Assembly (NCBI GenBank): GCA_963711835.1
Contig: CAVQFQ010000004.1
Span: 160,001 to 224,000, forward strand
From: an uncultured delta proteobacterium
GTDB lineage: Bacteria; Desulfobacterota; RBG-13-43-22
Direction of reading: 5' to 3'
Length of the DNA stretch: 64,000 bases
Every line of letters starts with the position of its first letter. The first letter of the stretch is position 1. This document shows, one piece after another, positions 573 to 21,826 of the stretch. Under the pieces are notes generated by a model. That model saw only the letters and a program-made list of their open reading frames with translations, made no database searches and was not told the origin of the DNA. The translations under genes and the position numbers were made by a program.

Positions 573-1406
573 CTACAATCTGGCATTCATCCATTCTATT
601 ATGCAGGTCAAAACCTGCTTTTTCTCCGGTTCATTGTGAACTTCGTGGTAAAAGCCCTCCCAGATTTTTAGGGTGCAGTATTCCCCCGCTTTTAAAGCAA
701 ATTCACGGCTTGCTTGAACAGAAGTCAACAGGTCGGCGCTGCCGTGCATGAGGAGCAAAGGCAGGGGGAACTCAGCGGCGTGATCTAAGGCCCATTTGCC
801 GGTCCTTAGAAGATCGATCCCCAATCGCGCCGAAATGCGGTCGTGGACCAGGGGATCGCTGGTGTAGAGCCGTACCACCTCCGGATCACGGGAGAGGCCC
901 TGTAAATCAAGCCCGTTGGGCATGGAAAAGGCAGGCCACAGGACAGCCATGGTTTTTCCGACCGCCACCTTCAAGACCGGCGGGTCGAAGGCCGGCTTGA
1001 GGGCCGGGGCGGTGGCAATAACTCCGGCTAACCGGGGTTTACGGCGCAGAACGAAATTAATGACGAAATTTCCCCCCAGGCTGTGGCCGTATAGAAAGCA
1101 AGGCCGGTTGGGGTATTGCCGGGCGGCCTCCTCGAGCAGGCGAGCAATGTCATCCATAAAGGCCTCGTAAGAAGGTCCATACCCGCGCTGCCCGGGCGTC
1201 TTGCCGTGCCCGCGCTGGTCGTAGGCCAGGGTGACATACCCGGCCTGTTCAAAGGCCTCTGAAACGTGCCCATAGCGCCCGCTGTGCTCGCCCAGACCAT
1301 GCACCAGGCAAACAACGGCCTTCGTCGGGTCAACCTCCGGCTCCCATCCCTGAGCATAGATGGGTATTCTGTCCCCTGTTTTCCATTCGAATTCAAAGTG
1401 TCTGAT
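573..1406 (-). CDS. Alpha/beta hydrolase, lysophospholipase/monoglyceride lipase family
   Basis: HGLGEHSGRY, DQRGHG, GHSLGG nucleophile elbow, C-terminal YHEVHNE. Family-like sequence extends upstream of the ORF-track start (1304) to an ATC at 1406 preceded by GAGGAGG. Confidence 0.88.
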   Translation of the reverse strand: MRHFEFEWKTGDRIPIYAQGWEPEVDPTKAVVCLVHGLGEHSGRYGHVSEAFEQAGYVTLAYDQRGHGKTPGQRGYGPSYEAFMDDIARLLEEAARQYPNRPCFLYGHSLGGNFVINFVLRRKPRLAGVIATAPALKPAFDPPVLKVAVGKTMAVLWPAFSMPNGLDLQGLSRDPEVVRLYTSDPLVHDRISARLGIDLLRTGKWALDHAAEFPLPLLLMHGSADLLTSVQASREFALKAGEYCTLKIWEGFYHEVHNEPEKKQVLTCIIEWMNARL

Positions 1407-1643: not shown

Positions 1644-1856
1644 ATGGATATGAAATTAACGGCTGTTTTTCAAAAAGTTCCGGAGGGATATATTGGCTTC
1701 GTTGAAGAACTCCCGAGAGCGAATACTCAAGGAAATACCCTTGAAGAAGCCCGGGCAAACCTTCGTGAAGCTGTTCGTCTTGTATTGGGAGCCAACCGCC
1801 TTCTCGCAGAGGGGTCAGTTCAAGGGTCACGAAAAATCTCAAAAGAGGAGGTTTAA
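1644..1856 (+). CDS. HicB-family antitoxin (no adjacent hicA)
   Basis: GYIGFVEELPRANTQGNTLEEARANLREAV matches the HicB xPGxxTQGxTLEEAxxNLxEA pattern. Confidence 0.85.
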   Translation: MDMKLTAVFQKVPEGYIGFVEELPRANTQGNTLEEARANLREAVRLVLGANRLLAEGSVQGSRKISKEEV

Positions 1857-2093
1857 TTGCAAGTTGAAAATCTAATAAATCGAATAACAGCAAGCCCCGA
1901 GGTGTTGGTCGGCAAACCGATCATTCGGGGGTTGAGAATCTCAGTTGATCAGATCTTAAAAGCACTGGCAGGAGGAATTACGGTTGAGGAATTACTGGAG
2001 GATTATCCTGAATTGGGAAAAGAAGACATCCAGGCAGCTTTGCTTTATGCTTCAAACCTAATAAATGAAGAACGGGGGTTTGCCATCAGCTAA
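1857..2093 (+). CDS. DUF433 protein (VapB45-like antitoxin)
   Basis: RITASPEVLVGKPIIRGLRISV...LLEDYPELGKEDIQAALLYA. Confidence 0.88.
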   Translation: MQVENLINRITASPEVLVGKPIIRGLRISVDQILKALAGGITVEELLEDYPELGKEDIQAALLYASNLINEERGFAIS

Positions 2094-2645: not shown

Positions 2646-2713
2646 TTGATCGACTACATCCTCCTGACGATCACCTCAAACTCCCCATCCTCTTCATTCT
2701 CCGGCAAAAAAGA

Positions 2714-2766
2714 AGCGCAGCAAGGGATCCCGCCCTGATAGCCCCGCGGAAAGGCCGGCCAGGCCC
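2714..2766. repeat. 53-bp direct repeat, copy 1
   Basis: 48/53 ungapped identity to 3607-3659. Confidence 0.9.
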
Positions 2767-2879
2767 TGGCCTTGACTCCCTGGGAGTATGCTGATAAGAG
2801 GAGGGGTAAGGGCAATTCGTCCCAGGTGGATCGCTGAGCCTTTTTCAGCAACCTCTTAAGAAATCGATTGAGCCTTATC

Positions 2880-3566
2880 ATGACCGAACCTCAATTTGAA
2901 TCCTTAGATCAGATGGCCGAGACCACGGCCTCGGCCTTGTCTCAGACCTGTGCCCATTTCGCTTTCGAACTGTTTCAAAAGGCACCCTTCCGGCGGGAGG
3001 CCCGGTTCGAGAAGCTAAATCAGGTGGAGCAGGACCGGATCTTTAATGAGTTGGTTGTGGCCCACCTGGTTCTCACCATGCTCATCCTGGAGGCCCCGGA
3101 TCTCCGAGTTGCCCAGGAGTTCCACGGTTATCTCAGGAATCTGAACCAGAAAATCCCCAAGAGCTATGTGGAACAGTTAAGTACCCTGGGGGTGGAAGCC
3201 GAATATCTTAAGGACTGGGATAAGCTGATTGCCCTGCGCTACGAAGAATACGCCCGGGACCGGCATGAGGTGCGGGCCGCGGCCATGGAGCTTGAATCGG
3301 CGGAAAAACCTCTTGATCTGGAGGATCTGTCCAAGATCCAACTGCTCGTTCCGGTTCAAGCCGTGGCCATTGGCTGTCACCACCATATCTGCCGGGGAGA
3401 GACCCAGGGGCGGGATGACTTATTCAAGGTAATCCTGGAATCGTTGTCGCAGTTCTATGTCCAATTCCGAGTTCGATTCGAGGGCGGCAAGATCACCCCC
3501 TTGACCCGGGCCAAAGTGGCCTTGAAAAAAGCCATCCGCCGGAAAAAGAAGAAAAAGAAAAAATAG
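2880..3566 (+). CDS. Hypothetical helical protein with C-terminal poly-Lys tail
   Basis: 228-aa ORF with protein-like composition, GCHHHIC motif, ends RRKKKKKKK; no family recognised. Confidence 0.7.
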   Translation: MTEPQFESLDQMAETTASALSQTCAHFAFELFQKAPFRREARFEKLNQVEQDRIFNELVVAHLVLTMLILEAPDLRVAQEFHGYLRNLNQKIPKSYVEQLSTLGVEAEYLKDWDKLIALRYEEYARDRHEVRAAAMELESAEKPLDLEDLSKIQLLVPVQAVAIGCHHHICRGETQGRDDLFKVILESLSQFYVQFRVRFEGGKITPLTRAKVALKKAIRRKKKKKKK

Positions 3567-3606
3567 GCGTCATTGGTAAGATCCTTTCCTTTGTCTACAG
3601 ACCCAT

Positions 3607-3659
3607 AGCGCAGCAGGGAATCCCGCCCTGGTAGCCCCGGGGAAAAGCCGGCCAGGCCC
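3607..3659. repeat. 53-bp direct repeat, copy 2
   Basis: 48/53 ungapped identity to 2714-2766. Confidence 0.9.
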
Positions 3660-3785: not shown

Positions 3786-5284
<1,499 letters not shown>

Positions 5285-21061: not shown

Positions 21062-21826
21062 CTAATCGGAATCCAATTGGGTTCCTTTTTTCAGATGAAT
21101 AAAAAATTCTTTATTCCCTTTGGCCCCCAGAAGAGGGGACTCGACCAACCCGAGAACCTCCAAACCCAGGTCTTTAAAAAAAACGGTTAACTCCTCGACC
21201 ACCTGGGCCTGATCCTCCGGATTTCGAACAATCCCCCCTTTACCCACTTTGCCTTTGCCCACTTCGAATTGGGGTTTTATCAGGGCCACGATGGATCCGG
21301 TGGACCTGATGAGCGGAAGCAAGGCCGGGATCACCAGTTTCAAAGAAATGAAGGAGGTATCCACTACCGCCAGGTCCGCCGTCTCACCAACCTCCTGCGC
21401 CTCCAAAAAGCGGACATTTTTCCGTTCCAGGACTCGAACCCGGGGATCCTGCCGGACCTCCCAGGCCAGTTGTCCGTATCCCACATCAACGGCATGGACC
21501 CGCTTGATACCCTTCGTAAGAAGGCAGTGGCTAAATCCTCCGGTAGAGGCCCCGATATCAAGGGCCACCTTACCGCTGACCGCCAGGTTAAAGGCCTCCA
21601 GGGCCTTTTCCAATTTTACCCCGCCCCGGCTGACATAAGGGGATTCCGGTCCCTTCACCTCCAGCGCCGCTTGAGGATCCACCGCCCGACCGGGTTTATC
21701 CATGGCCTGCCGGTTGACCAATACCTTTCCGGCATAAATCAAGGCCTTGGCCTTCTCCTGACTGGAGGCCAAGCCTCTTTCGACTAACAATCGATCCAGG
21801 CGAATTTTAGGACTTTTTATGGGCAG
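21062..21826 (-). CDS. tlyA: TlyA-family rRNA methyltransferase (start uncertain, overlaps dxs end)
   Basis: RLDRLLVERGL, YVSRGGVKL, DIGASTGGF, LIKPQFE, GNKEF. Confidence 0.92.
   Translation of the reverse strand: MPIKSPKIRLDRLLVERGLASSQEKAKALIYAGKVLVNRQAMDKPGRAVDPQAALEVKGPESPYVSRGGVKLEKALEAFNLAVSGKVALDIGASTGGFSHCLLTKGIKRVHAVDVGYGQLAWEVRQDPRVRVLERKNVRFLEAQEVGETADLAVVDTSFISLKLVIPALLPLIRSTGSIVALIKPQFEVGKGKVGKGGIVRNPEDQAQVVEELTVFFKDLGLEVLGLVESPLLGAKGNKEFFIHLKKGTQLDSD

What the first reader, a model, noticed from the sequence alone, without database searches (positions are those of the whole stretch)
2714..3659. 53-bp direct repeat whose five differences are all synonymous in a hidden Cys-Cys peptide frame
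Seen: 2714-2766 and 3607-3659 differ at offsets 10, 13, 25, 34 and 40, all in one codon phase. On the minus strand both encode AWPAFPRGYQGGIPCCA with changes GCC/GCT, CCG/CCC, TAT/TAC, ATC/ATT and CCT/CCC. Copy 1 continues SFLPENEEDGEFEVIVRRM*, copy 2 MGL*. Both sit just before CTTGAC and bracket the 2880-3566 gene. Copy 2 has no canonical in-frame start. Inference: purifying selection on an unannotated peptide or gene fragment, now perhaps a recombination anchor for cassette capture at this hotspot. I cannot name the protein.
Basis: partly seen in the sequence, partly recalled or inferred. Interest (0 to 1): 0.7.

Follow-up and report, generated by a model that had tools for sequence, protein, structure and literature searches.

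The report
Dead enzyme-gene tails bracket swappable cassettes
The repeat is two leftover scraps from the end of a predicted enzyme gene that is not found whole in this genome, and they likely act as recombination handles for swapping small gene cassettes beside toxin-antitoxin genes, a familiar kind of genome turnover rather than a hidden peptide.

Summary
The repeat is real as described; five all-synonymous changes arise by chance in 0.9% of simulations. The peptide is residues 277-293 of an unannotated ~312-aa family predicted to have the acyl-ACP reductase/TAD fold (Z 17-18, next 10), and is exactly its most conserved 17-residue block. Copy 1 runs on to the native stop (2654-2779); copy 2 is the block alone. 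No whole gene was found in this genome or the 20 others of its class; four hold 3' remnants. The remnants are pseudogenes: 5 of 12 carry frameshifts or changes at invariant residues, 5 of 12 lack an in-frame start. Relatives show one-, two- and three-remnant forms with flanks swapped at the block, so the copies are different coding-derived alleles, likely shuffled by homologous recombination as in Rhs tip arrays. No RNA structure or nearby integrase was found. Side finding: 31 of 72 intact genes elsewhere sit directly before a 7TM histidine kinase. Ordinary mechanism, undescribed gene family.

The parts
2654..2779 (-). Remnant 1: last 41 codons and native stop of a ~312-aa predicted AAR/TAD-fold oxidoreductase gene (residues 272-312); contains repeat copy 1 (2714-2766), Cys-Cys codons at 2717-2722
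   Evidence: 86% DNA identity over 132 nt and 88% protein identity over 41 aa to the intact gene in L142
3607..3661 (-). Remnant 2: internal fragment, residues 276-293 (the most conserved block), Cys-Cys codons at 3610-3615; no in-frame start; reads into MGL*
   Evidence: 87% over 54 nt to L142 gene
3662..3735 (-). Amidase-side flank, possibly a heavily decayed older part of the same parent gene
   Evidence: the homologous flank in L161 aligns to parent sequence (P 0.003, one of 9 flanks tested); the window's own version does not reach significance (P 0.095)
3577..3606 (.). 30-nt junction between the 2880 gene and remnant 2, shared with L160
   Evidence: 39 of 40 nt identical to L160; 9-14 of 30 matches to seven native gene tails, P 0.02-0.5, inconclusive
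2880..3566 (+). 228-aa cassette gene of unknown function; with one repeat copy it forms the 893-bp unit missing in L159 and L161
   Evidence: no Pfam or NCBIfam family; Atlas best 0.89, hypothetical clusters only; 78-83% homologs without the remnant in G003, G011, G016, G020
2798..2860 (.). Degenerate right end of a ~140-bp non-coding element with terminal inverted repeats (MITE-like), present elsewhere in the genome
   Evidence: 5 further matches at E <= 0.0013 in G000; full-length copies with matching ends in C13, C18, C21
2206..2645 (+). hicB-hicA toxin-antitoxin pair, tail to tail with remnant 1
   Evidence: PF15919 E 5e-12, PF07927 E 2e-12
1644..2093 (+). HicB/UPF0150-like gene and DUF433 gene, further hotspot cassettes (DUF433 absent in L161)
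3786..5284 (+). Amidase gene, conserved right border of the hotspot; split by a frameshift near 4170
   Evidence: PF01425 in both pieces
573..1304 (-). Alpha/beta hydrolase (Hydrolase_4) gene at the left side of the hotspot; deleted in L161
   Evidence: PF12146 E 1e-70

Best explanation
The two copies are pseudogene fragments of the most conserved block of a ~312-aa gene predicted to encode an acyl-ACP-reductase-like enzyme, and they likely work as homologous-recombination handles that add, drop and exchange the small cassettes lying between them. Shown: parent family, block position, decay of sister remnants, one-, two- and three-remnant forms, swapped flanks. Inferred: the intact gene travelled through these toxin-antitoxin hotspots; displacement insertions and deletions left 3' fragments from several different intact alleles, which is why copies differ only at silent positions; because this block is the one stretch all alleles share at about 85-90% identity, crossovers concentrate there, so an 893-bp unit (2880 gene plus one copy) can loop out or in, and the block is refreshed while neighbouring parent-derived DNA decays. 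Whether the window's two-copy form arose by insertion into, or is ancestral to, the one-copy form is not resolved.
For: Parent: 60 longer proteins among 201 candidates, 425 representatives at E <= 0.001; the 17 codons are the best-conserved window of the 53-row alignment (0.85 against 0.52 overall). No other part of the gene in G000. 4 of 21 class genomes match the C-terminal profile, all as 3' pieces. Decay: among 12 remnant cores, 4 change family-invariant residues (G007, L151, L157, L160 c1) and 3 have frameshifting deletions in or beside the block (L157, L160 c1, L161), 5 distinct in all; 5 have no in-frame start. Shuffling: L160 has two copies round the same gene, L159 and L161 one copy and no gene; contigs in runs X1 and X3 (two studies) show a third remnant piece, and one in X1 the one-copy form. 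The 5' flanks (amidase side, MITE side) and 3' flanks (HicA side, other) occur in all four combinations. Window c2 and L160 c2 share a junction 39/40 identical and a gene at pS 0.15, yet their cores are at pS 0.40, pN 0 (binomial P 0.03); window c1 against L161 pS 0.32 beside HicA pS 0.09 (P 0.03). 8 of 10 remnants that end at the native stop have a toxin-antitoxin gene next. A partner methyltransferase-like gene leaves the same kind of duplicated 3' remnants (L143, L167, L168).
Against: No recombination event or circle was observed directly. The third core-versus-neighbour comparison is not significant (window c2 against L159, pS 0.24 beside amidase 0.29, P 0.77), and the three pairs were chosen after seeing the data. 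The longest perfect run between the two window copies is 13 nt, short for RecA (recalled: about 25-30 nt minimum), so events should be rare. Intact donor alleles were found in 0 of 21 class genomes, only on metagenome contigs (L142, L143), which makes frequent refreshing hard to supply. The 15 of 28 four-gamete site pairs inside the cores could come from recurrent mutation. Metagenome contigs can be mis-joined at repeats. G005 holds mid-gene fragments without the block, so the block is not the only piece that survives.
Confidence: 0.68

Rival explanations
1. Inert relics: the fragments are what deletion leaves next to selected toxin-antitoxin genes; two alleles came side by side through long-range replacement of the whole hotspot, and the block itself plays no recurring part.
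For: Remnant lengths vary (111-228 nt against L142); my searches needed the block, so short remnants pile up at its edge by ascertainment; G001 shows an internal deletion and G005 mid-gene pieces; other junctions in L161 overlap by only 5-6 nt.
Against: All four flank combinations and one/two/three-copy forms meet at the block; cores are more diverged at silent sites than their neighbours in 2 of 3 pairs; the L062 remnant, found through its intact neighbour and not through the block, also begins at the block's first codons.
Confidence: 0.17
2. Attachment scars of a site-specific recombinase acting in trans that targets the conserved codons of this gene, as e14 does in icd, each cassette bringing its own replacement 3' end.
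For: Three different 5' flanks (window c1/L160 c1, L160 c2, G007) join at gene position 814 and three more within 15 nt; silent-only differences are typical of icd/icdC (PMC13626634, passages).
Against: No intact 5' gene in the four genomes with 3' remnants; nearest tyrosine recombinase about 69 kb away (serine recombinases not searched); among 101 loci scanned no intact gene had a displaced copy of its own 3' end downstream (L062 has one upstream, L143 has whole paralogs); no single crossover point explains the core alleles; no relative in the viral collection.
Confidence: 0.08
3. A translated Cys-Cys peptide kept by purifying selection (metal- or redox-binding), one intact copy per locus.
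For: 5 cores of the amidase-type locus (window c1, c2, L159, L160 c2, L161) differ by 3-7 silent and 0 amino-acid changes; copy 1 lies in a 75-codon open frame.
Against: No start in window c2 or L159; the 75-codon frame is closed by a stop and a frameshift in L160; upstream frame and C-terminus differ in every copy. The residues are those of an enzyme's predicted active-site loop.
Confidence: 0.04
4. A structured RNA or terminator for the convergent toxin-antitoxin and cassette genes, kept for its shape.
For: Most neighbours are tail to tail with the remnant; one terminator-like hit at 2719-2734 minus.
Against: All 8 folds are no better than shuffles (z +0.4 to +2.1); 12-sequence consensus folds have unfavourable covariation terms with 1 of 8 and 0 of 13 pairs showing a two-sided change; terminator-like hits are fewer than in shuffles (2 against 4.0).
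Confidence: 0.03

Closest known systems
Rhs C-terminal displacement arrays (Jackson et al. 2009, PMC2935791; passages read) and the homology-anchored array model for Vibrio T6SS immunity genes (PMC5361080; passages read)
   Same: Strings of dissociated gene fragments of variable length, each holding the conserved core, proposed to excise and insert neighbouring genes by homologous recombination through circles, without an integrase.
   Different: Here the core is the 3' active-site block of a predicted metabolic or signalling enzyme; the cargo is unrelated toxin-antitoxin and unknown genes, not alternative tips; no intact gene heads the array in this genome.
icdC, the displaced icd C-terminal pseudogene flanking E. 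coli prophage e14 (PMC13626634; passages read)
   Same: A coding-derived 3' fragment as a direct repeat that differs mostly at silent sites and recombines to delete what lies between.
   Different: No intact partner gene, no prophage, no tyrosine recombinase within about 69 kb.
Cyanobacterial acyl-ACP reductase (AAR, PDB 6jzq/6jzy/6jzz; TIGR04058) and the CarI terminal amidation domain (TAD, PDB 9e4s; 10.1101/2024.10.28.620694, passages read)
   Same: Predicted two-domain fold over nearly the whole length (Z 17.3-18.0, rmsd 3.6-4.5, 255-276 aligned), glycine-rich dinucleotide loop and invariant cysteine near the C-terminus at the start of a short helix.
   Different: 12-16% identity, no NCBIfam or Pfam family above cut-off, stand-alone and shorter, Cys-Cys rather than one Cys, and often followed by a 7TM histidine kinase.

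Membership tests
Rhs-type displacement array (works like) | Repeated dissociated core fragments of variable length from closely related alleles, separating different cargo | tested here: met
   remnants of 54-228 nt at 70-90% to L142 with different neighbours; up to three pieces in one contig
Rhs-type displacement array (works like) | Intact gene at the head of the array | tested here: not met
   no 5' part in G000 (89% complete), G001, G007, G015; L062 has intact gene and remnant, remnant upstream
Rhs-type displacement array (works like) | Circular intermediates carrying core plus cargo | tested here: inconclusive
   no circle joint in contigs of 4 runs of related strains; contigs drop rare forms
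icdC-type attachment scar | [quoted passage not shown] | tested here: not met
icdC-type attachment scar | Integrase in or beside the insert | tested here: not met
   7 PF00589 matches in G000, nearest about 69 kb away; none among the ORFs of the insert; serine recombinases not searched
icdC-type attachment scar | One fixed crossover point | tested here: inconclusive
   three flanks join at gene position 814, but core alleles do not split at one point
Integron cassette array | attC-like conserved hairpin with covariation | tested here: not met
   (folded with RNA parameters only)
Integron cassette array | Adjacent integron integrase | tested here: not met
Acyl-ACP reductase (TIGR04058), parent protein | Score above the family cut-off | tested here: not met
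   no TIGR04058 match for P0008 or P0013 at E <= 0.1; none in G000
Acyl-ACP reductase (TIGR04058), parent protein | AAR two-domain fold with Rossmann glycine loop | tested here: met
   predicted model pLDDT 93; Z 17-18 against next 10; G179, G182, G185 at least 90% conserved in 126 rows
Acyl-ACP reductase (TIGR04058), parent protein | Catalytic cysteine in register with AAR Cys294 | tested here: inconclusive
   C291-C292 invariant in 53 rows and at a helix start in the model; the tools gave no residue-level superposition, and sequence profiles did not list AAR among their shown hits
Acyl-ACP reductase (TIGR04058), parent protein | NADPH-dependent reduction of acyl-ACP to aldehyde | not testable with these tools
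   needs an assay
Terminal amidation domain (TAD) | C-terminal domain of an NRPS module | tested here: not met
Rfam RNA families | Match at gathering score | tested here: not met
   only two tRNAs elsewhere in the window

The most novel reading that the evidence does not exclude
A recombinase-free, integron-like cassette system in which the active-site codons of a dead enzyme gene have been co-opted as the spacer: the block is kept coding-perfect by gene conversion from intact alleles in other sediment bacteria, is selected as the exchange point for toxin-antitoxin cassettes at two separate loci in three genera, and its living parent is an undescribed AAR-fold signal synthase paired with 7TM sensor kinases across Patescibacteria and other phyla.
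Probability: 0.15. Interest if true: 0.62.

Novelty: new variant of a known kind. Interest (0 to 1): 0.32.

Why it matters
It shows how a silent-only repeat can mimic selection on a hidden peptide when it is really a pair of fragments from different coding alleles. If the anchor model holds, conserved active-site codons of a lost gene can organise toxin-antitoxin cassette turnover without any integrase. The more lasting lead is the parent: a widespread family without a Pfam or NCBIfam name, with the AAR/TAD fold and a frequent 7TM histidine-kinase neighbour, which makes a lipid-signal synthesis and sensing role directly testable.

Tried and rejected
tRNA/Rfam: nothing at the repeat. RNA structure: rejected. 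Promoter role of CTTGAC: the sigma-70 scan found no site at either copy; not shown either way. Pfam/NCBIfam gave no family above cut-off for the parent or the 2880 gene; PDB sequence searches gave only generic Rossmann-loop hits or nothing; profile comparison with the 370-aa neighbour in L143 was weak (probability 5.7%). Viral collection: 52 pattern hits, none confirmed. Test that the 30-nt junction is a decayed native tail: inconclusive; of 9 upstream flanks only L161's resembled the parent. Read laying used contigs of related strains (share of words at most 0.24), so it shows alternative arrangements but no rates; the RNA run X16 gave short pieces only and says nothing about expression. The letters at those contig junctions were not seen. 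Look-ups of earlier findings by sequence and by relatives returned nothing. Paper searches for this family or arrangement (listings and abstract starts only) found no description; the library lacks most subscription papers and no supplements were read, so absence from print is not shown. Rows dropped before counts: L158 (near-identical to L157), L156 (contig edge), L133 and L138 (possible duplicates of loci already counted), L062 remnant (found later, not among the 12 cores); 8 of 80 genome loci were not counted as intact.

Full report
Observation. The 53-bp direct repeat is at the stated places with five differences, all third-position and silent in one minus-strand frame. It occurs twice in the 3.9-Mb, 89%-complete genome. 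Random five-base changes are silent in some frame in 1840 of 200000 trials, so the pattern needs an explanation.

The parent gene. The 75-aa open frame over copy 1 found 7 short proteins sharing only its C-terminal half. One of these, searched against longer proteins, gave 60 hits among 201 candidates, mostly 280-350 aa; a profile found 425 representatives at E <= 0.001. The repeat's 17 codons are residues 277-293 and are the best-conserved 17-residue window of the 53-row alignment (0.85 against 0.52 overall), holding invariant P279, F281, P282, Y285, I289, P290, C291, C292. No Pfam or NCBIfam family passes its cut-off. The predicted structure (pLDDT 93.4, pTM 0.90) matches the CarI terminal amidation domain and cyanobacterial acyl-ACP reductase far above anything else (Foldseek E 9e-8 and 2.4e-5; Z 17.5, rmsd 4.4, 276 aligned and Z 17.3, rmsd 3.6, 257 aligned, next Z 10.1; Z 18.0 for 6jzz). 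In both known enzymes a cysteine at a helix start beside the nicotinamide is, or is proposed to be, catalytic (10.1101/2024.10.28.620694, passages); C291 starts a short helix in the model, so the repeat likely encodes the active-site loop, though I could not superpose residues.

What the window holds. Copy 1 is the last 41 codons and stop of this gene (2654-2779; 86% to the intact gene in L142); copy 2 is the block alone; no other part is in the genome. Of the 21 genomes of the class, 4 match the C-terminal profile, all as 3' pieces, a fifth has mid-gene fragments, and none has the whole gene; among 401 genomes drawn from the phylum one full-length member was seen. Intact close alleles exist on metagenome contigs L142 and L143, each followed by toxin-antitoxin genes.

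Not a living peptide. Among 12 remnant cores, 4 change family-invariant residues and 3 have 1-, 2- or 5-nt deletions in or beside the block, 5 distinct remnants in all. Five have no in-frame start before the previous stop, two have only the parent's own Val codon, and the 75-codon frame of copy 1 is closed in the 93%-identical locus L160. Against this, five cores at the amidase-type locus differ by 3-7 silent and no amino-acid changes, which selection on a peptide would also give; the lack of a conserved start or end makes that unlikely. RNA structure is not supported.

A shuffling point. L160 has two copies round the same gene; L159 and L161 have one copy and lack the 893-bp unit. Contigs of related strains show the one-copy form (run X1) and, in two studies (X1, X3), the gene flanked by block pieces plus a third remnant 307 letters away. 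Amidase-side or MITE-side 5' flanks combine with HicA or another 3' flank in all four ways. Window c2 and L160 c2 share a junction (39/40 identical) and a gene at pS 0.15, but their cores are at pS 0.40 with pN 0 (P 0.03); window c1 and L161 give 0.32 against 0.09 (P 0.03); the third pair is not significant (P 0.77). In L161 the DNA just upstream of a perfect core is a recognisable but decayed piece of the parent (P 0.003, one of nine flanks tested). These points fit crossovers and conversion confined to the one block that all alleles share. Of 10 remnants ending at the native stop, 8 have a toxin-antitoxin gene next. A methyltransferase-like partner gene leaves similar duplicated 3' remnants, so the process is not special to this gene. 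Limits: no event was observed, the longest perfect run between the window copies is 13 nt, intact donors are rare in the class, metagenome contigs can be mis-joined at repeats, and my remnant searches were biased towards pieces holding the block.

Site-specific alternative. Three flanks join at the same gene position, as attachment scars would, but there is no intact partner gene, no tyrosine recombinase within about 69 kb, no displaced 3' copy behind any intact gene in 101 loci scanned and no viral relative.

Comparison and verdict. The arrangement works like Rhs tip arrays, where core fragments of variable length are proposed to excise and insert neighbours through circles (PMC2935791, passages; PMC5361080, passages), and looks like icdC (PMC13626634, passages), while failing the membership tests of both on the missing intact gene. 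The mechanism is known in kind; the parent family appears unnamed in the libraries and papers searched (supplements not read). The livelier lead is that 31 of 72 intact genes from other lineages lie directly before a co-oriented HisKA_7TM kinase; a signal-synthesis role is my inference from recalled synthase-sensor pairs and is untested. Interest 0.32.

Noticed in passing
L063-L136 (genome loci): Of 72 intact parent genes, 65 have a downstream ORF within 600 bp; 32 of these form one cluster and 31 of the 32 hit HisKA_7TM (29 above cut-off), several with GAF and kinase domains; many records are titled Patescibacteria/Saccharibacteria. Others are followed by methyltransferase-like genes. Suggests an undescribed enzyme-plus-sensor cassette.
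   Followed up: partly
window 3786-5284: The amidase gene is split by a frameshift near 4170; contigs of all four laid runs have one base fewer at 4169 or 4173, and the gene is whole in L161 and G015, so the window has either an assembly error or a recent pseudogene.
   Followed up: partly
window 2798-2860: Right end of a ~140-bp element with terminal inverted repeats, several copies in G000 and relatives, often just upstream of genes. Relation to MITEs noted earlier in this genome not tested.
   Followed up: partly
L143:1-7539: Cluster of two methyltransferase-like genes, a 370-aa Rossmann protein, two intact parent paralogs and a 383-aa distant paralog, interleaved with toxin-antitoxin genes and a duplicated 3' remnant of the first methyltransferase gene.
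   Followed up: partly
L152:105-926: The C-terminal 57 residues of the parent are fused in frame to a pentapeptide-repeat-like N-terminus that is duplicated on the same contig; real fusion or mis-assembly not determined.
   Followed up: no
P0061: Parent domain fused behind a fatty-acid desaturase domain, recalling (from memory) the hydroxylase-plus-reductase layout of plant CER1/CER3.
   Followed up: no
window 2880-3566: The 228-aa gene has no family and sits in different neighbourhoods in G003, G011, G016, G017 (fragments) and G020, often beside nucleotidyltransferase-like toxin-antitoxin genes.
   Followed up: partly
window 21419-21494: tRNA-Pro called by ARAGORN but not listed by Rfam at gathering score.
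   Followed up: no
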